Virus record (IMG/VR): IMGVR_UViG_3300027972_000014
Span: 1-55,182 of that record
Source of the DNA: a virus
Lineage: Duplodnaviria; Caudoviricetes
DNA: 55,182 bases
Direction: 5' to 3' (one strand)
Shown: in pieces, positions 37,924-50,942 of the stretch
Position numbering within the stretch: position 1 is the first letter of the stretch
Layout: the number at the start of each line of letters is the position of its first letter
Made by a program: the position numbers and the translations under genes
The notes under the pieces: generated by a model
What the model saw: only the letters and a program-made list of their open reading frames with translations
What the model was told of the DNA's origin: nothing
Database searches by the model: none

Positions 37924-38160
37924 TTATACCACATTCCTACCCGGTTGCGTAACTGTCTCCGCTGCCTCTATCGCCTGCGCTACGACAGCCCTTAATGCGC
38001 AGGCTATTTCCGATAGCGCGTCTCGCTGCGCGTCGGTGAGCGAACGCAGAAACGCCGCCGGGTCGGTCGCGGCGAGGTACTGCTGTAAAATGGTTTGGCT
38101 TGCGGTTGGGTCAGGCATTGGGACGCTCCAAGAGGACGGGCTGAATTTGAGTGTGGTCAA
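37924..38160 (-). CDS. Small hypothetical protein (paralog of 40284-40490)
   Basis: ILQQYLAATDPAAFLRSLTDAQ. Confidence 0.55.
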   Translation of the reverse strand: MTTLKFSPSSWSVPMPDPTASQTILQQYLAATDPAAFLRSLTDAQRDALSEIACALRAVVAQAIEAAETVTQPGRNVV

Positions 38161-39328
38161 GGAAACGTTGCAAGCACACGCTAACGTAGGGTGGATGTAT
38201 TTCTATGCCGCGACAACGGCGGTTAAGGTTGTGGCAAGCGATAAGGGTTGTGCCACTGCCTAGAAATGGGTCAAAAATAACATTATTTTTAACCAAATTT
38301 ATTGCATCCTCAATAATACCTATAGGCTTTTGCGTTGGGTGTGGTTGTCTTTTTTCGCCAGCCTCTTTTATGTATCCGGCCCAAACGTGCCTACTTAATC
38401 TGTAACCGTTAAAGGAATTTGAAGCAGCAACCTCTACAGGGTTTCCTAGTCCATTCTCTCCACCGTCACCGCGTTTATCCCAAACTAATAAGCCGGTATA
38501 TTTTTCATCTCTAGCGATATACGGAAAACCAAACACAATCCACTCGTTATATTCATACACCCAAGATAAATCTAAATCCCCGCTATCGTTAGCAAGTTTA
38601 TCATCACTCAAGCAAGCTGGCTTTCCACGTTGCACATTCAACGTGGAAAGCCAGCTTGTGTCAACGTCAATTCCATAAGGCGGGTCTGTAACTATCGCCG
38701 CCTTCTCCCCCGCCATCACCCTTTCAACCGTTGCCCTATCCGTGCAATCGCCGCAGATAATCCGGTGCTCGCCACAGCCCCATAAGTCACCTAAATGCAC
38801 TTTCCAAACCTCTTGCAATTCCTCAGCGCGTGATATTTGCGGCTCTGTATCCTTGCCCGCGTCTCCCCCCTCCGCCGCCAGCATATCCCCCAGGGCGAAG
38901 GTGTCCTGCTGCCATTCTTTGAGCAAATCCTCATCGAAGCCAAAGCCGGTTAATGTGTCGGCGTCCAGCCCCCAATTCGCCAACTCGCTAAAGTCCCACG
39001 AACCGCCGTCAAGGTTCGCCTTGATATTAGCTGCAAGGCATTGCTCCGGCGTCCAGCGCACCGCCCGGTAACTGAATTGCTCCCCACGCCATTCTATGTA
39101 GCCCCGCGCAACCGTGCCGGTTCGCGTTGGTGTGTCAAACTGTTCGGTAATAACGGGTTGAATTTTGTCCAAGTCTAGCACCCGACAGCGTTGGTTGCCG
39201 CTTATCACCTGGTCGCTATTCAGGTCGTGGACAATGCCGCCCAGGTCGCCAAAATATTCCAGGTCGGTTGACAACTGCTCGAATTGTTTCTTGGATATTT
39301 TGCGCGGGTTATGGTCAAAAAACTTCAT
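38111..39328 (-). CDS. ParB-like domain plus N6A/N4C DNA methyltransferase
   Basis: HNPRKI...VISGNQR; TDPPYG; HPTQKP; DPFLGSGTT. Confidence 0.9.
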   Translation of the reverse strand: MKFFDHNPRKISKKQFEQLSTDLEYFGDLGGIVHDLNSDQVISGNQRCRVLDLDKIQPVITEQFDTPTRTGTVARGYIEWRGEQFSYRAVRWTPEQCLAANIKANLDGGSWDFSELANWGLDADTLTGFGFDEDLLKEWQQDTFALGDMLAAEGGDAGKDTEPQISRAEELQEVWKVHLGDLWGCGEHRIICGDCTDRATVERVMAGEKAAIVTDPPYGIDVDTSWLSTLNVQRGKPACLSDDKLANDSGDLDLSWVYEYNEWIVFGFPYIARDEKYTGLLVWDKRGDGGENGLGNPVEVAASNSFNGYRLSRHVWAGYIKEAGEKRQPHPTQKPIGIIEDAINLVKNNVIFDPFLGSGTTLIACHNLNRRCRGIEIHPPYVSVCLQRFLDHTQIQPVLLERPNA

Positions 39329-39540
39329 TTTGTTTCCTTGCACGTTTTAACTTTGGTATCCTTTAGCGGTAAACAGGAAATATCCTCCGTAGCCGAAATG
39401 AAACATAGCACGCCAATCTTATCGTTGCACCACACGTCAAGTTCTGCTTTTGGAGCAGGCGCAGCGCCAACGTTGTAAGCCATAACCAATATCAGGATAA
39501 AAAAGATTACAGCGGGTAAAGCAGGTAAAATGTATCTCAT
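39325..39540 (-). CDS. Small membrane/secreted protein
   Basis: N-terminal hydrophobic helix. Confidence 0.5.
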   Translation of the reverse strand: MRYILPALPAVIFFILILVMAYNVGAAPAPKAELDVWCNDKIGVLCFISATEDISCLPLKDTKVKTCKETK

Positions 39541-42376: not shown

Positions 42377-42604
42377 TCATCCTTCAGCTATTTCAGAAAG
42401 CGGAATATAAAATTCCCTGCTATCTAAATAGTAATAAGGAGGAGTATTATCGCCGGTACAATTATCAACCTTTATTATTACTCCATATTTTTCAAGTAAA
42501 GATTTTAGTTCGTCTAAAAATTCCAGTTTTTTTTCATTGCTATCCATTATTATAACACCTTTATGGAAATTGAGGAATAACCTCAATTCTTTGGTGAGCC
42601 TCAC
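42377..42604 (-). CDS. Hypothetical protein
   Basis: ORF; likely start MDSNEKK. Confidence 0.45.
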   Translation of the reverse strand: MRLTKELRLFLNFHKGVIIMDSNEKKLEFLDELKSLLEKYGVIIKVDNCTGDNTPPYYYLDSREFYIPLSEIAEG

Positions 42605-43415
42605 TATGAGGTCGTAAAATTATCTTGATATACCCTACCGGCAATGCCGGATAACCCTTTGTCGTGGCATAGGTGTCATAACCTATACCGTCAAAAAACG
42701 TACCACAAAAAGCGCCCTGCCGAATTTTGCCGCGCATATTGTAGCCGTTGTCAACCTCCTCAACGGTTAGAGCCAATGGAAAAGTGCGATGGTTATGTCC
42801 CAATAGAGCCAGGTCGCAGTCATGGCGCAGCAGCACCCGCTCTAAAACCAACGCCGGGCCACCAGCCAATTGCCCCCCTCCGTGTCCGTGATGAACAAAG
42901 ATTTTTATTTTGGAGACAGCGTTCCTTCTCTCTTTATCCTGATAAAAATTCAGGATTAGCCAACCTGAATAACCAAATTCAAGTTTGTGTTCTGATGGAA
43001 ATTTACCCAATTCTTTGACACCGCAAATTGTTTCCCGATATATATCCCTCTCGAAATATTTACGAATCATAGCCTCGTGATTACCTTCGACTAATCCCAA
43101 ACACTGCCGGGCTATGGGTTTTATCAAGTTGAGGTAATGATTGCTTTGTGCTTTTGCCAGGTCTGACAGGTCATTTATGGTTAGCCAGTCAGCCAGAATT
43201 TCAGGTGAGAAACGGGGGTCGGAACGATTGATAAAGTCGCAACGGTCGCCCAGGTCAAGCCAGTAATTGAGAGGGGATGAAGCTATTTCGGATACCACCC
43301 GCGCCAGTTTGTCTTCCCGGCACGGCTTGATACCACTATGGATGTCAGTCAGGATATAGAGGTAAAACTCATCGGAGCGACTGACGCCGTAAAAATCCTT
43401 GCGGATTGTGTTCAA
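42561..43415 (-). CDS. Calcineurin-like metallophosphoesterase
   Basis: DIH, GD..D, GNHE, HG and GHNH motifs. Confidence 0.88.
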   Translation of the reverse strand: MNTIRKDFYGVSRSDEFYLYILTDIHSGIKPCREDKLARVVSEIASSPLNYWLDLGDRCDFINRSDPRFSPEILADWLTINDLSDLAKAQSNHYLNLIKPIARQCLGLVEGNHEAMIRKYFERDIYRETICGVKELGKFPSEHKLEFGYSGWLILNFYQDKERRNAVSKIKIFVHHGHGGGQLAGGPALVLERVLLRHDCDLALLGHNHRTFPLALTVEEVDNGYNMRGKIRQGAFCGTFFDGIGYDTYATTKGYPALPVGYIKIILRPHSEAHQRIEVIPQFP

Positions 43416-44992: not shown

Positions 44993-45268
44993 TCAATCTT
45001 GGAAATCTGGATGATGAGAGTCCAAAAAGTCGCGTGCGTCAAATTCCTCTCCATATCCCTCGGTCTGCAACATCATCATCGCTCGTTGTCGCTCTTTTTC
45101 TTCCCGGTTAATTTGCGATTCTGAGATTAGCCAGCCGCTTCCATCCTCAACCATTCCGCTAATTGGCTTTCCGTCTGAACTCATTCTTGCACCACAAGCG
45201 CATATACTTAATTTGATGTCACCAAACGGTAAGGTTCTTGTTTCTTTTGCTTTGTGTATGTGTTTCAT
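44993..45268 (-). CDS. Hypothetical protein
   Basis: RBS AAGGAG, first gene after a consensus promoter. Confidence 0.6.
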   Translation of the reverse strand: MKHIHKAKETRTLPFGDIKLSICACGARMSSDGKPISGMVEDGSGWLISESQINREEKERQRAMMMLQTEGYGEEFDARDFLDSHHPDFQD

Positions 45269-45314
45269 TTTTTAGCTCCTTTATTGCGTGCAATTGATTG
45301 ACTTGATTGTATAT

Positions 45315-45343
45315 AGTATAGCATATATGCTATACAATGTCAA
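45315..45343 (-). promoter_or_regulatory. Promoter with overlapping perfect 20-bp palindromic operator
   Basis: TTGACA-17bp-TATACT; gtatagcatatatgctatac at 45316-45335. Confidence 0.75.
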
Positions 45344-45402
45344 GGGTTTTTGCAATGAGTTTTTGTACCAATTTTGGTACACTCAGGAGCTACAATCAGT
45401 TC

Positions 45403-45526
45403 AGCTAACGGACGGCGCATCACCGGCTGCCGGTGTGGGCGATGCGACCCCCGCGATAATGTGATTTTGTTAGCGCACACTGCCCGATAACGCGCTATAG
45501 GCAGTCCGGTGATGCGCTTGTTAGGT
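45403..45526 (-). mobile_element. Integron attC site
   Basis: R'' acctaac; gcgcatcaccgg(a)ctgcc pairs with ggcagccggtgatgcgc, leaving one extrahelical base; R' gttagct. Confidence 0.8.
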
Positions 45527-45536
45527 TTACGTAAAA

Positions 45537-46214
45537 TCAAGGCTGCATAATAGTATACCCGTATTTATCACCAATCTCACAGCACGCCACCCGTCCGTTA
45601 TTGTTCCAATACGGAGGCCGAAGACGTACTTCGCGCAAGCCGTTTTTGTCGGGTAAATAGCGCATTGCAAGACCGTCTCGTACCAGTGAGTAGTCATTAT
45701 CAATTATTTCAACGGCAATCTCCTCAATACGCCCCATCCCCCGTCGCCGCTTGGTCGCCAAATATCGCACATTACGCTGTAGTAGGTCATTGATACGCTT
45801 GCGATTACCAACACAGTAGCCAACCATTCGCACCGGCATCTGTTTATTATAAGGGATGTCCCAACTACGAGTTGGACCGGTTTTGGTGTTAATCGTGCCG
45901 ACGGTCAGGTATAAAAACGACTCCCGGAATCGCTTACGAAAATGGACAATAGATTCCTCGATCTCGCCGTCATCCGATTCTGGGTGCAAGGCCGACGCGC
46001 ACCAGCCCCAATAATCGCCAATATGCCACGTGCCAAGCGGTAGGCGAATTTCCTCTGGCTCACCATCGCGGGTAGGCGCGATTTCACTTTGACGCACCAT
46101 TGGGCTTAAAGCCCAGTCAATGATACCGTCAAGTGTGGGCGGCACAAATGGGTCATAAATTATCCCAAACGGGTCTATCCAAAAAGTTACCTTTAACGGA
46201 GTTATAGCGCTCAT
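45537..46214 (-). CDS. csf3: Type IV CRISPR-associated Cas5-like protein
   Basis: PLKVTF...LDGII.WA; LPL...WCASA; FRKR; TGP.RSW; YCVGN...I.DLL; KRRRGMGRI G-rich loop; RPPYW. Confidence 0.8.
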   Translation of the reverse strand: MSAITPLKVTFWIDPFGIIYDPFVPPTLDGIIDWALSPMVRQSEIAPTRDGEPEEIRLPLGTWHIGDYWGWCASALHPESDDGEIEESIVHFRKRFRESFLYLTVGTINTKTGPTRSWDIPYNKQMPVRMVGYCVGNRKRINDLLQRNVRYLATKRRRGMGRIEEIAVEIIDNDYSLVRDGLAMRYLPDKNGLREVRLRPPYWNNNGRVACCEIGDKYGYTIMQP

Positions 46215-46216
46215 AA

Positions 46217-47476
46217 TTATCTCCACGCGGGGTTAATATATCTTGCCCCGTCCAGTAGTATTGTTTCGTCCCCCTGAGTAAGAGCAATTTGTCGGGCGTG
46301 GCTTTTTGCTGACATGATGCCATCACACTCAACGCTCCACCCTGGATTTGTTTTGGGGCGTCGAACGTTATCGTGCCACGCCTTTATTAAATTCGCTATT
46401 TCCTGATGGTATACCGCCTTTGCCCCTCCAAGCGGCGTTACGGGTTGCGGGATAAGCGGCGTCCATTTAATACGCAATGATACGGACTTTTTGAGAGGTA
46501 TCGCAAATACGGCTCCCATAACCCTCTCCCATTGTTTAAAATCCTCTTTTGGACGCTCCCAGGGATGGGCAAACATCTGAAATATTTTAAAGTTGACGTG
46601 TCCTTGAGTAATCATTATCCGAAAATAATCAACTATTTGTTTATCGGTGATTTTTTTATTAACCAGAAAGCGAGTTTCTTCGGTTAGTCCATCAATCCCT
46701 ACTCTAACAAGTTGGTTATTATCTACCGGAACACCCCCTTTTTTGATAATTTTATCAAGCCGGTATGAGCCAAACGCCTGTCGTAGTCCAAGTTCGCGCG
46801 CTTTAGCCAGATATAAGTTATACCAGGGTGTACTGGCTTCATCCGGCGCAAAAAAAACTATCTTTTTGGCTTGCAATGTATCAAGCGATTCCATCATCGC
46901 TAAAACATCCTCCGCTTTACGGTAGCGGAATGGCATCGAATGCCCTAACTCGCAATAGTGACAACGGAATGGGCAACCGCGAGCAACCTCTATATACCAG
47001 GCGGCAGATAACGTATTGGGGCGGTTAAGGTATGGTGGGTTGTCCGGCAGTGGTTTTTCATAATTACGTGGTGGAATTTCACCACCTTTCCATAATTCTG
47101 TAATAATCGTCCCGGGTAAATCCTTGAGCGCTATTATTACCCGCTCTTTGTCAAGTAACCTTGCCGCGTTTTTAATCCACGTCTCCCCGTCACCGAGGCA
47201 GATAACATCCATTAATGGAATCATCGGACGTGGATTGTTGTAAGTGACGTGCCCTCCCCCAATTCTGATTTTGCCGTGTTTAGGGGTTGTTTTTAGCCGC
47301 TCGTAATCCTCCGGGTGGTGGACACTAATCAACTCCACATCGTAATGATACCTTGAAGTATGAGGCGCAATCACATCAACTACATGCCCCATCCGGCGTA
47401 ATTGTTCTGCGACAAAAAACGCGCCGATTGACCCCACTTCTTCATCACCGGCAGGCTCTATTATACAAAAATTCAT
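46217..47476 (-). CDS. B12-binding-type radical SAM enzyme
   Basis: IEVARGCPFRCHYC (CxxxCxxC); GGGH...DVICLGDGE Rossmann-like N-terminal domain; ATG overlaps the csf1 stop. Confidence 0.88.
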   Translation of the reverse strand: MNFCIIEPAGDEEVGSIGAFFVAEQLRRMGHVVDVIAPHTSRYHYDVELISVHHPEDYERLKTTPKHGKIRIGGGHVTYNNPRPMIPLMDVICLGDGETWIKNAARLLDKERVIIALKDLPGTIITELWKGGEIPPRNYEKPLPDNPPYLNRPNTLSAAWYIEVARGCPFRCHYCELGHSMPFRYRKAEDVLAMMESLDTLQAKKIVFFAPDEASTPWYNLYLAKARELGLRQAFGSYRLDKIIKKGGVPVDNNQLVRVGIDGLTEETRFLVNKKITDKQIVDYFRIMITQGHVNFKIFQMFAHPWERPKEDFKQWERVMGAVFAIPLKKSVSLRIKWTPLIPQPVTPLGGAKAVYHQEIANLIKAWHDNVRRPKTNPGWSVECDGIMSAKSHARQIALTQGDETILLDGARYINPAWR

Positions 47477-48180
47477 TTTACGCCCCCACTCAATTCCTCC
47501 TGGCTCGGCAACAGGTACTCCATAAACTGATACAACGGCGCTTGATAATGCGCACGTGCCCAACGATAAAACGGCTGCCACACCGCGCCGATTTTATAGA
47601 TCATACCCACCGGGGCATCAAGTGTTTTGATAGCTGTACGCCAAACGCCAGCGTCCTGAACCTCACGCATTATGCGCCAATACTCAGTGACAGTGTCGAT
47701 ATTTGCATTAACCAGCAGATCGTTAAATCCCCACACGCCGTAGGGCCGCCCGTTGACCGGAGAACGTAGAGAACCGTGTTTTTTGTAGGTGGTCGTCACC
47801 CACCCAGCCCAATGTTTTGCGGTTGTGCCGTTAAGCACCAAATCTCTAATCTTTGGCTTGCCGACCTCGATAAATTGCTCTCCATCACACCACCAACAAG
47901 CCATCATTTCTGGCTTTTTCTTACGCTTTTTTGGGGTATCGTCCTCGTTAGTGCCATACTCTCCATATTGCCAGGCGTACCAGGCGTTAAGTCCTACCCT
48001 GTCACTATCAGGAGCAGCCAGCAGTGACGTATCACTAAAATTACTACTGAGTAATCTAGAGCGAGGGATAGTATCCCCCGCTCTACCTGTGATACAGCAC
48101 ATACCAAATTGCGGTTCGATTGGCGGCGGCTCACGATTTGTTATAGGTATAGCTTGTGCTAATAGGTCTACAGTGTGCAT
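47473..48180 (-). CDS. csf1: Type IV Cas8-like large subunit
   Basis: CCITG...LLSSNFSDTSLLAAPDSDRV; TTTYKKH...PVN; sits between csf2 and csf3. Confidence 0.65.
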   Translation of the reverse strand: MHTVDLLAQAIPITNREPPPIEPQFGMCCITGRAGDTIPRSRLLSSNFSDTSLLAAPDSDRVGLNAWYAWQYGEYGTNEDDTPKKRKKKPEMMACWWCDGEQFIEVGKPKIRDLVLNGTTAKHWAGWVTTTYKKHGSLRSPVNGRPYGVWGFNDLLVNANIDTVTEYWRIMREVQDAGVWRTAIKTLDAPVGMIYKIGAVWQPFYRWARAHYQAPLYQFMEYLLPSQEELSGGVK

Positions 48181-48206
48181 TACGCCTCCTTAAACATCGG
48201 TGTTTT

Positions 48207-49484
48207 TTAGTTATCTGACTGCTTTTGCGAGGCGAATCCGCCAATTTGCCGGAGGTAGTCTATAATCGCCTGCTTATTATCGGCCAGGTAGCGATTATAC
48301 AATGATCCATTAAGTGTTAATTTGGACTGATACTCAATAGTCGCCCGGCCAAAACCCCGGTGAACCTTGCCACCAAGATAACCAAACTGCTGCATCATTT
48401 CTAATCCCTTAGCCAGCGCAGATATTTCTACGTCGGTGATGTGTAGGTCAACGTCAATACCGCCCTCTAGCACTGCCCCCTCTATAAGACATTCATAATT
48501 GGCAATCATTGACTTGTTAGCCATATCGCCATTGCCAGTTTCTTTAGCTTGCAACTTGCTGATTTTATTCTCAAGGTCATCACGATTGACGATGTATCGC
48601 CAGTCCATTAACATTTCCACTGATTCATCGCCATTCCCCCATTCGACGCATTGCGGGCGTAGATCGTTGATGTACACACGACCCTCAAGCGGGCTTTTGC
48701 CCACACCACCCAACAACGAAAAATAAGGAATCATATTTCGCAATTGGATCGCCCCGTTTACTTTTATTGCCCCGGCTACGTTGCCAGTTAAGGCTGCCTC
48801 GAATAATTTAGGGATCGCTCCATCGGCCATAATGCCGCCAGATGTCAGTAAGTGCAAAAACCAAGGCGCAAATAACCGCTCTCGGCTTTTAGTATCGTAA
48901 CCAAGCGCGGTGACAAAATGCTTTGCAAACAGGTCACGCATCTGTCCCGCCCAGGCGTTGGCTGAATAGTACGGTAATTCTTGGCCGCCTCGCACGCTAC
49001 CACGGCGAAACAAAGTATTGTTACCGGCCTTTTTGTCATCGCCGTGAGTAAAAGCGTTTTCTAGCGTGGCTATAATGCCAATATCAAACGGGCGACGGCG
49101 GTGCATTTGCACATTTTTAACTATTCGTGGTTCGTAAGCCGCGCAAAAGTCGGTAATCATTTTTGGCCTATTGTCCATGCTGGCCGTCGCCATTGATATG
49201 GAAATTGACGGTTGCTCTCGGAGCCAAATATAACACGAATCGGCATCTTCTGCAGCAGCTGCGCTCATAAGCCCCTGCGTTGTAGTACCGCGTAGTACGG
49301 GACTTCCCAATAGCTCGCCAAACCGATTAATAGTAGATAGTAACTTACCGGACGTGCAAGCAACACGAAGCCTCCCGGCAAAGAAATCATATTTGCCGGT
49401 TGAGCCACTTTTTACAGATGCGTTATTCATAATCTCGCCCAATGCGGCGAGGGTCTTTCCAACGGTATCGGTCGTAAGTTTCAT
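48207..49484 (-). CDS. csf2: Type IV Cas7-like backbone protein with N-terminal Cas11-like extension
   Basis: FTHG...GN..LFRR; LPYYSANAWAGQMRD; LTSGG; IPYFSLLGG; YECLIEG; LGGKVHRGFG G-rich loop; about 110-aa helical N-terminus ending WLREQP. Confidence 0.85.
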   Translation of the reverse strand: MKLTTDTVGKTLAALGEIMNNASVKSGSTGKYDFFAGRLRVACTSGKLLSTINRFGELLGSPVLRGTTTQGLMSAAAAEDADSCYIWLREQPSISISMATASMDNRPKMITDFCAAYEPRIVKNVQMHRRRPFDIGIIATLENAFTHGDDKKAGNNTLFRRGSVRGGQELPYYSANAWAGQMRDLFAKHFVTALGYDTKSRERLFAPWFLHLLTSGGIMADGAIPKLFEAALTGNVAGAIKVNGAIQLRNMIPYFSLLGGVGKSPLEGRVYINDLRPQCVEWGNGDESVEMLMDWRYIVNRDDLENKISKLQAKETGNGDMANKSMIANYECLIEGAVLEGGIDVDLHITDVEISALAKGLEMMQQFGYLGGKVHRGFGRATIEYQSKLTLNGSLYNRYLADNKQAIIDYLRQIGGFASQKQSDN

Positions 49485-49486
49485 TT

Positions 49487-49858
49487 TTAGTCCTTTCTAA
49501 AATCCATATCGTTGTAATTTTCCCAGGGATGGCGTTTGCCCCCCCCTCTATATTTTTTTCTTGCTTCGTTCATTATGGGCACTTTCTTGAGCGCAGCCTT
49601 GTGAGCCGCATCTGTTTTATGTTTAACCTCAACAATCTCCGGCGGCGTCCACCGGTTGACGGTCATAATATGCACACCCAACTTATTAGCTACCTGTTCT
49701 ACGGTCAACCCTTCGCCGATGCGTAAATATTGAATCACGTCTGATGGATGGCGGCCAGGGAGTATATCCGCACATGCCCTCACCATCTTTGTGTGCCATA
49801 AAAATATTCTGTCTGTGTTGACTTTTCGCAACCTGGTTTTTTGGTTAGTAGATAGCAT
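49487..49858 (-). CDS. HTH DNA-binding protein heading the cas operon
   Basis: EGLTVEQVANKLGVHIMTVNRW. Confidence 0.7.
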   Translation of the reverse strand: MLSTNQKTRLRKVNTDRIFLWHTKMVRACADILPGRHPSDVIQYLRIGEGLTVEQVANKLGVHIMTVNRWTPPEIVEVKHKTDAAHKAALKKVPIMNEARKKYRGGGKRHPWENYNDMDFRKD

Positions 49859-49869
49859 TGTCTTAGTAA

Positions 49870-49977
49870 ACCTAACGCCCCCGGTTTCGCCGGCTGGCGC
49901 GTAATAAAACTACTTGATTTCTAAACTCATTTTCATTTGCCCGGCTTCCACCAGTCCGGCGCAAACCGTTGTTGGGT
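49870..49977 (-). mobile_element. Integron attC site
   Basis: R'' acccaac; cggttt(g)cgccgg(a)ctgg pairs with ccagccggcgaaaccg, leaving two extrahelical bases; R' gttaggt. Confidence 0.82.
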
Positions 49978-50155
49978 GGCTGTTTGCGCTGCGCCAAATT
50001 CCATTGACATATTTATACCCATTTTCTTGCATAATGATAGGGTAGCAATCGTCACAGATGTTACGAAAAGCGTCTTTTTCCCTGGAATTTTTAGCGGGCA
50101 TCATTACCCGCACCGCACTTTCCAGATTAGATTTTTTGCACCTATAACACTTCAT
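49910..50155 (-). CDS. Small Zn-binding cassette ORF
   Basis: CYRC...CDDC; RBS AGGAG; ends inside the attC. Confidence 0.6.
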   Translation of the reverse strand: MKCYRCKKSNLESAVRVMMPAKNSREKDAFRNICDDCYPIIMQENGYKYVNGIWRSANSHPTTVCAGLVEAGQMKMSLEIK

Positions 50156-50179
50156 AATATTTTCTCCTGGTGACGTGAC

Positions 50180-50210
50180 GCCCAACGCCGCATTTCAGGG
50201 GCGGTCACGT
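50180..50210 (-). mobile_element. attC right half-site
   Basis: Minus strand gcccctgaaatgcggc-gttgggc; left arm not found. Confidence 0.55.
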
Positions 50211-50368
50211 ATACTTTACATTTGCAATTATCTAATTTCCCGCCTGATAATAATACCACATATTCCACAAATTACATCACGTACCAACGCCACAATACCG
50301 CCACGTAATACGGTTTCAAGCCAGGGGGTATATCTATGATTATATTCGGGATGATTACACATTATTCC

Positions 50369-50812
50369 TCAATTCTCTGGTTGTAACCCGTAGCTGTCAT
50401 CGTCAACCCCGTCGCCAGGTTTGCCGTCAAACGAGATGTCATTACCTATGGCATCAATTGCCTCAACTGCCCTACGTGGATGTCCAAAGTTGGGATATTC
50501 TGCAATCAATTCAGCCACAATTCCCGGCAATTCCGAGGCGTCAATTTCGTGACGTTTAACATCGCGCCTGAATGTAATAGTCATTTTATCCGATGATACA
50601 TTCAGCCAGGCTAATTCAACCACACGGTCATTGTCGAAAGCCGTGTAGGTGTAAGTATCCCACCCGCTAATACTTTGACGAATATCGAAGCCAAGTCGGG
50701 TTATAGCCGGGTCGCCCTGACCGGGGTCGGTTATTTTTCGAAATGCTTTTTGGCTAACATTACCCTTACCGCGTTCTTGCGCTGTTAAAAACCATAACAT
50801 TGATGCGTTCAT
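50369..50812 (-). CDS. Hypothetical protein
   Basis: RBS AGGAG, directly after a consensus promoter. Confidence 0.65.
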   Translation of the reverse strand: MNASMLWFLTAQERGKGNVSQKAFRKITDPGQGDPAITRLGFDIRQSISGWDTYTYTAFDNDRVVELAWLNVSSDKMTITFRRDVKRHEIDASELPGIVAELIAEYPNFGHPRRAVEAIDAIGNDISFDGKPGDGVDDDSYGLQPEN

Positions 50813-50848
50813 TGTCGTGTCTCCTGTCTAATTCAATCCTATGTGTCT

Positions 50849-50942
50849 ATTATATCGCACTTTATTCCATTTGTCAATAACTATATTACATAATATACAC
50901 CCAATATTGATTATTGACATTTAGGACAAGTTGGGTTATAAT
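50849..50942. promoter_or_regulatory. Divergent sigma70 promoter pair
   Basis: Minus: TTGACA(50877-72)-17-TATAAT. Plus: TTGACA(50914-19)-17-TATAAT. Confidence 0.8.

What the first reader, a model, noticed from the sequence alone, without database searches (positions are those of the whole stretch)
45537..49858. Phage-encoded, array-less type IV-like Cas complex with a B12 radical SAM enzyme instead of CysH
Seen: a tightly coupled operon of HTH, csf2-like (Cas7), csf1-like (Cas8), radical SAM and csf3-like (Cas5). The radical SAM ATG overlaps the csf1 stop and its stop abuts the csf3 start, so it sits in the middle of the effector genes. Known: type IV-A uses DinG, and type IV-B usually lacks arrays and is linked to a CysH/PAPS-reductase-like gene. 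I recognised no DinG, CysH, Cas6, Cas1/2 or array in this apparently complete genome. Inference: this is a variant type IV-B-like system in which the ribonucleoprotein recruits a cobalamin-type radical SAM enzyme. It may carry out RNA-guided chemical modification (e.g. methylation) of nucleic acid, or sequester host crRNAs as an anti-CRISPR.
Basis: partly seen in the sequence, partly recalled or inferred. Interest (0 to 1): 0.95.

Follow-up and report, generated by a model that had tools for sequence, protein, structure and literature searches.

The report
Phage type IV-B CRISPR, radical-SAM partner
An uncultured tailed phage carries a guide-array-less type IV-B CRISPR-like protein complex whose usual CysH-like helper enzyme is replaced, in the same gene slot, by a dedicated radical SAM enzyme, which gives a testable clue to what this unexplained CRISPR subtype does.

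Summary
On the minus strand of a complete 55,182-bp phage genome lie five coupled genes: HTH, Csf2/Cas7, Csf1, a radical SAM (rSAM) enzyme with a B12-type fold, and Csf3/Cas5. I found no array, Cas6, Cas1, DinG-type helicase or CysH.

The rSAM family is tied to type IV genes. 43 of 48 rSAM-anchored loci carry csf genes, in at least seven gene orders, and one further locus carries a Cas6. One locus has a 9-repeat CRISPR array.

The rSAM is not an odd insertion. Related phages have the same order csf2-csf1-X-csf3 with X = CysH-like. On a Csf2+Csf3 tree the partner switches between rSAM and CysH at least 5 times. One locus has both enzymes.

Cobalamin binding, physical docking and the substrate are not shown. 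A separate Cas11 is missing, and the helical N-terminus of Csf2 could not be shown to be Cas11.

I found no paper linking radical SAM enzymes to type IV systems; supplements were closed. This scan has already reported the same theme on other DNA (at least four other genomes). New here are the middle-slot architecture, the array-bearing relative and the locus with both enzymes.

Verdict: a real, new variant of a known kind.

The parts
50849..50877 (-). Candidate early promoter of the transcription unit (TTGACA-17-TATAAT, 12 of 12), back to back with an equally perfect plus-strand promoter at 50914-50942
   Evidence: Consensus scan. The total number of promoter-like sites in the region is not above shuffles (17 against 14.0), so function is inferred only from the perfect match and the position.
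50369..50812 (-). 147-aa ORF of unknown function, first gene after the promoter
   Evidence: No Pfam hit. No homolog in the related loci. Membership of the operon is inferred from strand and position only.
49910..50185 (-). Small ORF (91 aa as listed) with two CxxC pairs, a zinc-ribbon-like protein
   Evidence: Translation. No Pfam hit. Not found next to relatives' csf genes.
49487..49858 (-). Helix-turn-helix protein (123 aa); its stop lies 2 nt before the csf2 start
   Evidence: Weak HTH hits only: HTH_23 1.1e-3, HTH_3 4.3e-3, all below cut-off. Homologs lie before csf2 in L140 and between csf3 and cysH in L194. Junction.
49137..49484 (-). N-terminal all-helical domain of Csf2 (residues 1-116, seven helices); possible fused small subunit (Cas11), not proven
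   Evidence: Model, pLDDT about 90 in this part. No PADLOC Cas11 hit. hhalign against Cas11 of related loci gives probability 0.2%. The domain is conserved in 13 long-form Csf2 ORFs of the rSAM loci.
48207..49484 (-). Csf2 (type IV Cas7), 425 aa; RAMP core from about residue 135
   Evidence: PADLOC Csf2_0_IV 5e-35. Foldseek best hits are 7xg0_E (IV-A Csf2) 1e-7 and 7jhy_a (IV-B) 1.3e-6, then Csm3 chains. 38 other long-form clusters at 90% identity.
47473..48180 (-). Csf1 (type IV large subunit), 235 aa
   Evidence: PADLOC Csf1_0_IV 6.4e-7. hhalign of alignment A4 against canonical Csf1: 99.5%, E 5e-23, 226 columns.
46217..47476 (-). Radical SAM enzyme, 419 aa: N-terminal Rossmann (B12-type) domain, CxxxCxxC core (C168, C172, C175) and a family-specific C-terminal part
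   Evidence: Pfam and NCBIfam hits. Invariant residues in 33 sequences. Model pLDDT 95.1. Best folds are MgmA 9ccb 4e-15, TsrM, MtaB, OxsB and MiaB. ATGA overlap with csf1.
45537..46214 (-). Csf3 (type IV Cas5), 225 aa
   Evidence: PADLOC Csf3_0_IV 2.1e-27. NCBIfam cas5_csf3 7e-18, 65 bits against a cut-off of 140. Its start lies 2 nt after the rSAM stop.
45269..45536 (-). Intergenic region after csf3: a GC-rich hairpin without a T tail, then a strong promoter-like site (45343-45315, 11 of 12 with TG) for the next gene; end of the module
   Evidence: Sequence; scan. No conserved counterpart in related loci except a 39-nt weak match. No Rfam family in the window.

Best explanation
This is a phage-borne, array-less CRISPR-Cas effector module of the type IV-B kind. 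It has Csf2 with an extra helical N-terminal domain, Csf1 and Csf3. Its dedicated accessory enzyme is a radical SAM protein with a B12-type N-terminal domain, which takes the place of the CysH-like (CasCysH) enzyme of canonical IV-B.

Shown here: the gene identities, the tight coupling, the near-obligate linkage of this rSAM family to csf genes, and its interchangeability with CysH in the same slot.

Inferred: the genes are transcribed early from a consensus sigma-70 promoter. The Csf proteins assemble on an RNA. This phage encodes no array, so the RNA would be a host crRNA or a non-CRISPR RNA, while at least one relative supplies its own crRNAs. The RNA-protein complex positions the rSAM enzyme, most likely at the Csf3/Csf1 end. 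The enzyme then performs a radical-based modification, most likely a methylation, of the bound or targeted nucleic acid. The phage would use this for counter-defence or competition with other mobile elements.
For: Identity.

Coupling.

Linkage. Of 48 rSAM-anchored loci (the window, 7 IMG/VR loci, 1 MAG contig and 39 metagenome loci), 43 have at least one csf gene beside the rSAM gene. One more, L156, has a Cas6e-family gene. Three of the four remaining misses are contigs under 2.4 kb. At least 5 rows repeat another row. Linkage survives at least seven gene orders: csf2-csf1-rSAM-csf3; csf1-cas11-csf2-(cas6)-csf3-rSAM; the same with two rSAM genes; csf2-csf1-csf3-rSAM; csf2-rSAM-csf3-csf1; csf1-csf2-rSAM-csf3; and rSAM-csf1-csf2-csf3.

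Same slot as CysH. Of 46 Csf2-anchored viral loci, 37 have a CysH-like gene in the locus, 3 have the rSAM gene, none has both, and 6 have neither (5 of those are cut by a contig end). L215, L219 and L226 read csf2(long)-csf1-CysH-csf3. L183 (CysH) and L006 (rSAM) share 78% Csf2+Csf3 identity.

Tree. On the Csf2+Csf3 tree of 63 rows the partner label needs 10 changes, at least 5 of them forced by starred branches. The window's 7-row rSAM clade (100*) sits in a 17-row clade (96*) with 8 CysH loci.

Constraint. Mean pairwise identity is 0.51 for the rSAM against 0.28 for Csf2+Csf3. CxxxCxxC and 45 other positions are invariant.

Fold. The best matches are B12-dependent rSAM enzymes (MgmA, TsrM, OxsB, CysS) and the tRNA-modifying MiaB/MtaB.

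Guide dependence is possible: L170 has rSAM-csf1-csf2-csf3 followed by nine 37-nt repeats.

It is a real, circulating phage: pieces at least 99% identical occur in runs of other studies.

The published proposal for IV-B is that the complex recruits CasCysH to modify a nucleic acid (PMC8175902, passages read).
Against: There is no evidence of physical association.

Cobalamin binding is not shown. Pfam B12-binding scores 13.6 bits against a cut-off of 32.1. Some enzymes with this N-terminal domain are not methylases; OxsB and AprD4 are among the fold hits.

The closest solved relative, MgmA, modifies a protein, not a nucleic acid.

This genome has no array, no Cas6 and no recognisable RNA gene, so the guide is unknown.

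The solved IV-B complex bound heterogeneous non-CRISPR RNA (PMC7937560, abstract seen in the listing).

L156 has both the rSAM and a CysH-like gene, so the two may complement and not merely replace each other.

L158 has a 277-aa rSAM ORF (the usual length is about 405-460 aa) with no csf gene within 3.7 kb upstream or 6 kb downstream.

The early timing rests on one consensus promoter match.
Confidence: 0.6

Rival explanations
1. The rSAM enzyme modifies a protein and not a nucleic acid. It would install a C-methyl or other radical modification on a Csf subunit or on a host protein that the complex brings to it, as MgmA does on methyl-coenzyme M reductase.
For: The best sequence and fold match among solved structures is MgmA, a glutamine C-methyltransferase: 9ccb, profile E 4.4e-13 and Foldseek 4e-15. 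No RNA-binding TRAM-like beta barrel appears in the C-terminal secondary structure of the model.
Against: Identity to MgmA is only 14%, so the substrate cannot be read from it. The enzyme alternates with a PP-loop/PAPS-reductase-type enzyme. As recalled, and not tested here, relatives of that family such as DndC act on nucleic acids. No conserved candidate substrate motif was sought in the Csf proteins.
Confidence: 0.15
2. The module is a sensor-and-signal device. The Csf complex senses an RNA or DNA and switches on the rSAM enzyme, which makes a small molecule such as a modified nucleotide. CasCysH would likewise make a nucleotide-derived messenger.
For: A 2026 paper cites the proposal that CasCysH AMPylates substrates or produces second messengers (PMC13676074, passage read). 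Two chemically unrelated enzymes in one slot fit 'any output enzyme' as well as 'any modifying enzyme'.
Against: No receptor or effector gene for such a signal recurs next to the modules in the 48 loci mapped. Only families that I seeded were searched, so this is weak evidence. The fold hits do not include viperin-type enzymes near the top; 7n7i ranks 33.
Confidence: 0.15
3. The Csf proteins act alone as an RNA sponge or anti-CRISPR that soaks up host crRNAs. The rSAM gene is unrelated cargo that happens to sit in a recombination hot spot.
For: The phage has no array and no Cas6. The slot is clearly a hot spot for exchange: the partner switches between rSAM and CysH, and L004 and L008 have near-identical Csf proteins (end branches 0.043 and 0.034 on the Csf tree) but rSAM genes 73% and 48% identical to the window's. 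The sponge idea was raised, and judged unlikely, in PMC7038947 (passage read).
Against: Unrelated cargo would not stay with csf genes in 43 of 48 loci through at least seven rearrangements. It would not be more conserved than the Csf proteins. It would not be translationally coupled on both sides. In two general collections, 50,697 phage records and 72,556 plasmids, the family has no hit at all.
Confidence: 0.07
4. The module is a decaying remnant without function.
For: It lacks several parts of a canonical system: array, Cas6, a separate Cas11 and an adaptation module.
Against: All four genes are intact and coupled. Catalytic cysteines and many other residues are invariant across 33 sequences. 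Long-form Csf2 has 38 other clusters. The same DNA, at least 99% alike, occurs in runs of other studies filed seven or more years apart.
Confidence: 0.03

Closest known systems
Subtype IV-B CRISPR-Cas (csf1-cas11-csf2-csf3 plus cysH-like gene), e.g. the Mycobacterium sp. JS623 Csf complex, PDB 7JHY
   Same: It has the Csf1, Csf2 and Csf3 core. It has no array, no Cas6, no adaptation genes, no helicase and no nuclease. One dedicated non-nuclease accessory enzyme is tightly linked, and the module sits on a mobile element. The Csf2 fold matches 7jhy_a. Relatives of the window's rSAM sit after canonical csf1-cas11-csf2-csf3.
   Different: The accessory enzyme is a radical SAM protein, not a PAPS-reductase-like protein (PF01507 is absent). 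There is no separate cas11. Csf2 carries a 116-residue helical N-terminal domain. The gene order is csf2-csf1-X-csf3. The carrier is a tailed phage, not a plasmid.
Phage IV-B loci with the order csf2(long)-csf1-cysH-csf3 (L215, L219, L226 and others in IMG/VR)
   Same: The gene order is the same, Csf2 is the long form, and Csf2+Csf3 are 40-43% identical to the window's. They fall in the same starred 17-row clade.
   Different: The slot between csf1 and csf3 holds a PAPS_reduct protein (Pfam 1.1e-14 for L215) instead of the rSAM enzyme.
MgmA (methyl-coenzyme M reductase glutamine C-methyltransferase, PDB 9CCB) and other cobalamin-dependent (class B) radical SAM enzymes (TsrM, OxsB, CysS, TokK)
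   Same: It has an N-terminal Rossmann domain plus a radical SAM barrel with CxxxCxxC. These are the best sequence and fold matches. The 'S-x-(L/H) ... GG' pattern aligns with MgmA; that this pattern is the cobalamin-binding signature is recalled, not tested.
   Different: Identity is only 12-15%. The C-terminal 130 residues are family-specific. The genomic context is CRISPR-like, not biosynthetic. Cobalamin binding and the substrate are unknown.
Subtype IV-A (DinG) and IV-D (RecD) systems
   Same: They share the Csf2 and Csf3 folds; the best Foldseek hits are IV-A Csf2 chains. One rSAM locus (L156) also carries a RecD2-type helicase, and one (L170) an array.
   Different: The window has no helicase, no Cas6 and no array.

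Membership tests
Type IV CRISPR-Cas effector module | Csf2 (type IV Cas7) | tested here: met
   PADLOC Csf2_0_IV 5e-35. The model's best matches are IV-A and IV-B Csf2 chains. NCBIfam cas7_csf2 scores only 25 bits against a cut-off of 130.
Type IV CRISPR-Cas effector module | Csf3 (type IV Cas5) | tested here: met
   PADLOC Csf3_0_IV 2.1e-27. NCBIfam cas5_csf3 7e-18 over the full length, but 65 bits against a cut-off of 140.
Type IV CRISPR-Cas effector module | Csf1 (signature large subunit) | tested here: met
   PADLOC Csf1_0_IV 6.4e-7. hhalign against canonical Csf1: 99.5%, E 5e-23.
Type IV CRISPR-Cas effector module | No adaptation module, no effector nuclease | tested here: met
   Cas1 (PF01867) is absent from the complete genome. 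Cas2 and nuclease domains were not searched for separately.
Subtype IV-B | No DinG helicase | tested here: met
   PF13307 is absent; the same search rang in 12 of 14 control genomes.
Subtype IV-B | No CRISPR array and no Cas6 | tested here: met
   Repeat finders found no array. PF08798 and PF01881 are absent. A very divergent Cas6 cannot be excluded.
Subtype IV-B | Cas11 small subunit | tested here: inconclusive
   There is no separate gene. The Csf2 N-terminus is a confident seven-helix domain. It gives no PADLOC Cas11 hit and hhalign probability 0.2% against Cas11 of related loci. The structural aligners that report aligned ranges were not available.
Subtype IV-B | Linked cysH-like (PAPS reductase family) gene | tested here: not met
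   PF01507 is absent from the whole genome; the control rang in 14 of 14 genomes. It is also absent from 5 related viral records.
Subtype IV-B | Csf2 groups with IV-B in phylogeny | tested here: inconclusive
   The window nests among phage loci that have Cas11 and/or CysH, but no reference IV-A, IV-C, IV-D or IV-E sequences were in the tree.
Radical SAM superfamily | CxxxCxxC cluster motif in a partial TIM barrel | tested here: met
   C168, C172 and C175 are invariant in 33 sequences. Pfam Radical_SAM scores 34.5 bits against a cut-off of 29.5. Fold.
Class B (cobalamin-dependent) radical SAM enzymes | N-terminal Rossmann-type cobalamin-binding domain | tested here: inconclusive
   The fold and profile match MgmA, TsrM, OxsB, CysS and TokK. 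NCBIfam B12_SAM_MJ_1487 is 6e-16 but far below its cut-off. Pfam B12-binding scores 13.6 bits against a cut-off of 32.1.
Class B (cobalamin-dependent) radical SAM enzymes | Binds cobalamin and transfers methyl | not testable with these tools
   This needs purified protein (UV-vis, EPR, activity assay).
Methylthiotransferases (MiaB/RimO/MtaB) | Three conserved cysteines for an auxiliary cluster in the N-terminal domain | tested here: not met
   The only invariant cysteines in alignment A1 are C168, C172 and C175, although MiaB and MtaB are good fold matches.

The most novel reading that the evidence does not exclude
Type IV-B modules are RNA-scaffolded 'writer' machines and not interference machines. 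The Csf filament uses a bound RNA to aim an exchangeable chemistry cassette at a nucleic acid. The cassette is a PP-loop CasCysH, this B12-type radical SAM enzyme, or both. In the radical SAM version the output would be guide-directed radical C-methylation, or another C-H functionalisation, of DNA or RNA. Phages would use it to mark or disarm host or rival genomes. That would be the first natural RNA-guided radical enzyme.
Probability: 0.25. Interest if true: 0.92.

Novelty: new variant of a known kind. Interest (0 to 1): 0.75.

Why it matters
The function of subtype IV-B is still open. A 2026 paper states that its biological function and complete architecture remain unclear (PMC13676074, passage read).

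Most thinking has centred on the 'nearly invariant' CysH-like partner (PMC7038947 and PMC8175902, passages read). This work shows that phages repeatedly swap that partner for a chemically unrelated radical SAM enzyme in the same slot. That constrains the models. Whatever IV-B does must be achievable by either a PP-loop ATP-using enzyme or a radical SAM enzyme, and the common denominator is more likely a shared substrate held by the Csf complex.

The work also yields concrete experimental material: near-isogenic pairs (L006 and L183), an array-bearing member with defined candidate guides (L170), and a locus with both enzymes plus a RecD2 helicase (L156).

If the enzyme proves to be guide-directed, it would be a new kind of programmable nucleic-acid chemistry.

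Tried and rejected
1. Complex prediction with Csf1 + Csf3 + rSAM (alignments A4, A5, A1; partner rSAM) returned 'no answer' with scores 0.00 and 0.02 against a mark of 0.32. It is not used for or against binding.

2. Cas11 fusion. The Csf2 N-terminal 119 aa gave no PADLOC hit at E up to 1. hhalign of 29 N-termini against 5 Cas11 sequences gave probability 0.2%. The Foldseek list for the whole model shows only Cas7-type chains in its top 50 and gives no ranges. The idea stays open.

3. Close DNA or protein relatives in named collections. The operon has no megablast match in phages. The rSAM protein has no tblastn match in phages or plasmids. Csf2 has none in phages. The major capsid protein is at most 38% identical to isolated phages, so no host could be named.

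4. A single-protein scan of viral contigs with the rSAM found nothing; alignment-based scans were needed.

5. The genome-contig scan gave 1 ortholog among the 80 loci kept.

6. The L170 array had no match in phages or plasmids at E up to 0.1. Its repeat is absent from the window (up to 3 mismatches) and from the other 255 loci (exact match only).

7. No Rfam family reached its gathering score in the window. No conserved intergenic element was found next to the module in relatives.

8. Expression: no RNA holder was listed. Parts of the stretch without contig cover mean nothing.

9. Integron-cassette readings of the same stretch by first readers (e1-6338106, e1-6338107) were not pursued.

10. 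Literature searches for a radical SAM and type IV link gave only unrelated papers. PMC11437467 concerns a different rSAM module in Thermus phages (passages read). PMC4158269 and PMC9723712 were seen in the listing only. The main text of the 2025 classification update (PMC12669027) has no occurrence of 'radical'. Supplementary tables of these papers were closed and may list such variants.

Full report
1. What is there.

The window is a whole virus record of 55,182 bp with a 148-nt terminal direct repeat and an estimated completeness of 100. It is a tailed phage. It encodes a tape-measure protein, portal, major head protein, large terminase, DnaB-like helicase, primase and a ParB-DNA methyltransferase fusion.

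Five genes lie on the minus strand between 49858 and 45537:
- an HTH protein (123 aa);
- a 425-aa Csf2;
- a 235-aa Csf1;
- a 419-aa radical SAM (rSAM) protein;
- a 225-aa Csf3.

The HTH stop is 2 nt from the csf2 ATG. A 26-nt spacer with AAGGAGG precedes csf1. csf1 and the rSAM gene overlap as ATGA. Two nucleotides separate the rSAM stop from the csf3 ATG.

A perfect sigma-70 consensus promoter at 50877-50849 lies upstream of two small unknown ORFs and the HTH gene. No terminator-like site interrupts the string. Another strong promoter-like site follows csf3. Promoter function is inferred only.

2. Gene identities.

- PADLOC profiles give Csf2_0_IV 5e-35, Csf1_0_IV 6.4e-7 and Csf3_0_IV 2.1e-27.
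- NCBIfam gives cas5_csf3 7e-18 and cas7_csf2 9.3e-6, both under the curated cut-offs. Pfam sees only a faint RAMP signal.
- An AlphaFold model of Csf2 (29-sequence alignment, pLDDT 80) best matches type IV-A Csf2 chains (7xg0_E, 1e-7) and the IV-B chain 7jhy_a (1.3e-6), ahead of type III Csm3.
- The weakest call, Csf1, was checked by profile-profile comparison. An alignment of 14 window-type proteins matches canonical Csf1 proteins at 99.5% probability over 226 columns.
- The rSAM protein passes the Pfam Radical_SAM threshold. It also hits Radical_SAM_N2 and several B12-type rSAM NCBIfam models far below their cut-offs.

3. What the genome lacks.

Two repeat finders show no array. Six-frame family searches of the whole genome found no PAPS_reduct (CysH), no Helicase_C_2 (DinG type), no CasE-type or Cas6_C-type Cas6 and no Cas1. 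Every search rang in control genomes. The operon's rSAM gene is the only radical SAM gene in the genome. Cas2 was not searched for.

4. The rSAM enzyme.

Its model is confident (pLDDT 95.1). The best structural matches are:
- MgmA, the B12-dependent glutamine C-methylase of methyl-coenzyme M reductase (4e-15);
- TsrM;
- an MtaB model;
- OxsB;
- MiaB;
- AprD4;
- CysS.

All are at 12-15% identity. A profile search of PDB sequences agrees: 9ccb 4.4e-13, then CysS and TokK.

In 33 family members C168, C172 and C175 (CxxxCxxC) are invariant. So are S51-x-H53-H54 and G74-G75-H76 in the N-terminal Rossmann domain. These align with 'SLQ' and 'GG' of MgmA. That S-x-L...GG is part of the classical cobalamin-binding signature is my recollection, not a test.

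No cysteines other than the three are conserved. An auxiliary cluster of the MiaB/RimO kind is therefore unlikely. The enzyme is best described as a single-cluster rSAM with a B12-type domain. Cobalamin binding and methyl transfer are plausible but unproven.

5. Size and habitat of the family.

- A word-indexed search found 220 proteins at E up to 1e-3. The 120 listed are all 46-100% identical over 87-100% of the query (at least 92% in all but one), and almost all are unnamed metagenome proteins.
- A full HMMER pass over 1.84 billion representatives gave 33 representatives scoring at least 176 bits. Scores then fall to a broad plateau of generic B12-type rSAM proteins at 141 bits or less.
- There is no hit in 50,697 GenBank phage records or 72,556 plasmids.
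- Among species-representative genomes only one ortholog appeared, on a 3.6-kb MAG contig.
- The nearest ESM Atlas clusters are 73-100% viral (a lead only).
- DNA at least 99% identical to the operon occurs as short contigs in soil and wetland runs of studies other than the likely source. Two of those runs may be one data set.

6. Linkage to csf genes.

I gathered rSAM-anchored loci from IMG/VR (L002-L008), one MAG contig (L060) and a metagenome scan that used the family-specific C-terminal part as query (L140-L178). A marginal 23-residue match, L179, was dropped. ORFs were searched with HMMs seeded from PADLOC-verified proteins.

Of 48 loci, 43 have at least one csf gene next to the rSAM gene. 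The five without are:
- three contigs under 2.4 kb (L144, L165, L175);
- L156, with only 441 bp upstream, which turned out to encode the end of a CasE-family Cas6;
- L158, a 10.5-kb locus with a 277-aa rSAM ORF (the usual length is about 405-460 aa) and no csf gene, the one true exception.

At least five rows duplicate others, because the same contigs are held in two collections.

The linkage persists through at least seven gene orders:
- the window's csf2-csf1-rSAM-csf3;
- the canonical csf1-cas11-csf2-(cas6)-csf3-rSAM (L005, L006, L176);
- the same with a second B12-binding rSAM gene in tandem (L007, L153; Pfam B12-binding 5.8e-8);
- csf2-csf1-csf3-rSAM;
- csf2-rSAM-csf3-csf1;
- csf1-csf2-rSAM-csf3;
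- rSAM-csf1-csf2-csf3.

Across 26 loci the rSAM proteins average 51% pairwise identity against 28% for Csf2+Csf3.

7. Relation to CysH.

An independent Csf2-anchored scan of IMG/VR gave 46 loci. PF01507 is present in 38 of the 46 records. Within the loci, 37 have a CysH-like gene beside the csf genes, 3 have the rSAM gene, none has both, and 6 have neither. Five of those six are cut by a contig end, and L209 is a real blank.

Three points matter.

First, several CysH loci have exactly the window's unusual order with a long-form Csf2: csf2-csf1-CysH-csf3 (L215, L219, L226, and with extra genes L220, L221, L223, L225). Their Csf2+Csf3 are 40-43% identical to the window's. That is closer than rSAM loci of other architectures, at 20-27%. 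PAPS_reduct was confirmed by Pfam for L215 and L183. So the rSAM gene does not interrupt the effector genes. It occupies the CysH slot of this lineage.

Second, L183 (CysH) and L006 (rSAM) share 78% Csf2+Csf3 identity.

Third, a maximum-likelihood tree was built from concatenated Csf2+Csf3 with 63 non-identical rows (26 rSAM, 37 CysH). Left out were rows without both proteins, rows with both enzymes or neither, and exact duplicates. On this tree the partner label needs 10 changes, and starred branches alone force at least 5. The window lies in a 7-row rSAM clade (100*) inside a 17-row clade (96*) of 9 rSAM and 8 CysH loci. This was the 'quick' search with SH-aLRT support only. Four long branches and some compositional outliers were flagged. 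The two label groups come from differently anchored searches.

Even rSAM-for-rSAM exchange seems to occur. L004 and L008 have almost identical Csf proteins, but their rSAM genes are 73% and 48% identical to the window's.

PF01507 is absent from the window and from five related viral records. Among the 48 rSAM loci only L156 has a CysH-like gene. There the order is Cas6e-like, rSAM, PAPS_reduct (Pfam 3.5e-27), unknown, RecD2-type helicase.

8. Guides.

This phage has no array. L170, however, carries rSAM-csf1-csf2-csf3 followed directly by nine 37-nt repeats spaced 71-74 nt apart. It is flanked by DNA methyltransferase genes, and PADLOC sees no Cas6 among the ten ORFs I tested. Its spacers match nothing in the phage and plasmid collections. 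L005-type loci carry a CasE-like Cas6. So at least part of the rSAM-linked group can be expected to use crRNAs.

9. Cas11.

Canonical relatives have a separate cas11 just before csf2. The window has none, but its Csf2 begins with a confident seven-helix domain (residues 1-116). The domain is conserved in the long-form family. Sequence tests for Cas11 kinship failed. The structural aligners that would give ranges were unavailable. A fusion is plausible from position and helical content only.

10. How it most likely works.

Shown: a conserved, coupled Csf2-Csf1-rSAM-Csf3 module, and an rSAM family that is dedicated to type IV modules and interchangeable with CasCysH.

Inferred: early expression; assembly of a Csf ribonucleoprotein on an RNA not encoded as an array in this phage; docking of the rSAM enzyme near the Csf3/Csf1 end; and radical SAM chemistry, most likely methylation, on the nucleic acid held or targeted by the complex, serving counter-defence or competition between mobile elements. 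This parallels the published proposal that the IV-B complex recruits CasCysH to modify a nucleic acid (PMC8175902).

Rivals are a protein substrate (the MgmA analogy), a signal-producing enzyme, unrelated cargo beside an RNA sponge, and decay. The linkage data argue strongly against the last two.

11. Novelty.

Four full-text searches found no paper that links radical SAM enzymes to type IV systems. The main texts of the type IV survey (PMC7038947), the type IV review (PMC8175902), the 2025 classification update (PMC12669027) and the Bathyarchaeia virus paper (PMC10848311) contain no occurrence of 'radical'. Supplements could not be opened.

Within this scan the same theme has already been reported for at least four other genomes (e1-5963270, e1-5324816, e1-3434310, e1-5963271). 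My reading, formed before that look-up, agrees with them.

What this window adds:
- the csf2-csf1-X-csf3 architecture with X = rSAM or CysH;
- the possible Cas11-Csf2 fusion;
- an array-bearing rSAM-linked relative;
- a locus with both enzymes and a RecD2 helicase.

I rate it a new variant of a known kind, with high but not top interest, because the biochemical function remains open.

Noticed in passing
L170:9347-9977: An rSAM-csf1-csf2-csf3 locus is followed directly by a CRISPR array of nine 37-nt repeats (spacing 71-74 nt). It is flanked on both sides by DNA methyltransferase genes, and no Cas6 was detected among the ten ORFs tested. The spacers have no match in the phage or plasmid collections.
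   Followed up: partly
L156:3-5841: This is the one locus with both enzymes. Its order is: end of a CasE-family Cas6, rSAM, a PAPS_reduct (CysH-like) gene overlapping it by 4 nt, an unknown 330-aa ORF, and a RecD2-type helicase of 767 aa. RecD is the marker of the proposed subtype IV-D.
   Followed up: partly
L007:3523-6233 and L153:3767-6399: Two different radical SAM genes stand in tandem after csf3. The first has a Pfam B12-binding domain above threshold. A relative of it also lies 1.5 kb upstream of the csf genes in L003 (2354-3292).
   Followed up: partly
L004 and L008 (csf2 to csf3): The Csf2+Csf3 proteins are almost identical (end branches 0.04 and 0.03 on the tree), but the rSAM genes are 73% and 48% identical to the window's. 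This suggests cassette exchange inside the slot even between rSAM alleles.
   Followed up: no
window 47473-47520 (Csf1 C-terminus) and alignment A4: The Csf1 proteins of this lineage end in a nearly invariant L-L-P-S-Q-E-E-L motif. Many relatives add an acidic tail ending in F-L-H-D or similar, which the window's protein lacks. Its role is unknown.
   Followed up: no
window 50849-50942: Two perfect sigma-70 consensus promoters (12 of 12 each) stand back to back: one towards the csf operon and one towards a 290-aa ORF on the plus strand. This looks like an early control region.
   Followed up: no
window 38111-39343: A ParB-like N-terminus is fused to a DNA methyltransferase (PHROG 498, 9e-57), about 6 kb from the csf module.
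   Followed up: no
L194:8669-8845: A homolog of the window's HTH protein (44% over 61 residues) lies between csf3 and the cysH-like gene of a CysH-type phage locus. The HTH gene may therefore be a recurrent companion of phage IV-B modules.
   Followed up: no
window 42561-43415: A calcineurin-like metallophosphoesterase (Pfam 1.9e-9) lies downstream on the same strand. A 26%-identical homolog lies on the opposite strand about 3 kb beyond csf3 in L160.
   Followed up: no
window 45200-50900: Short contigs at least 99% identical to the operon (0-1 differences) occur in soil and wetland metagenome runs of studies other than the likely source, filed seven or more years later. The phage is therefore widespread and stable.
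   Followed up: partly
L189, L197, L202, L211, L213, L216, L220, L223, L225: Many CysH-type phage IV-B loci carry two PAPS-reductase-like genes, one of about 230-290 aa and one of about 360-450 aa. This parallels the tandem rSAM genes seen in L007 and L153.
   Followed up: no
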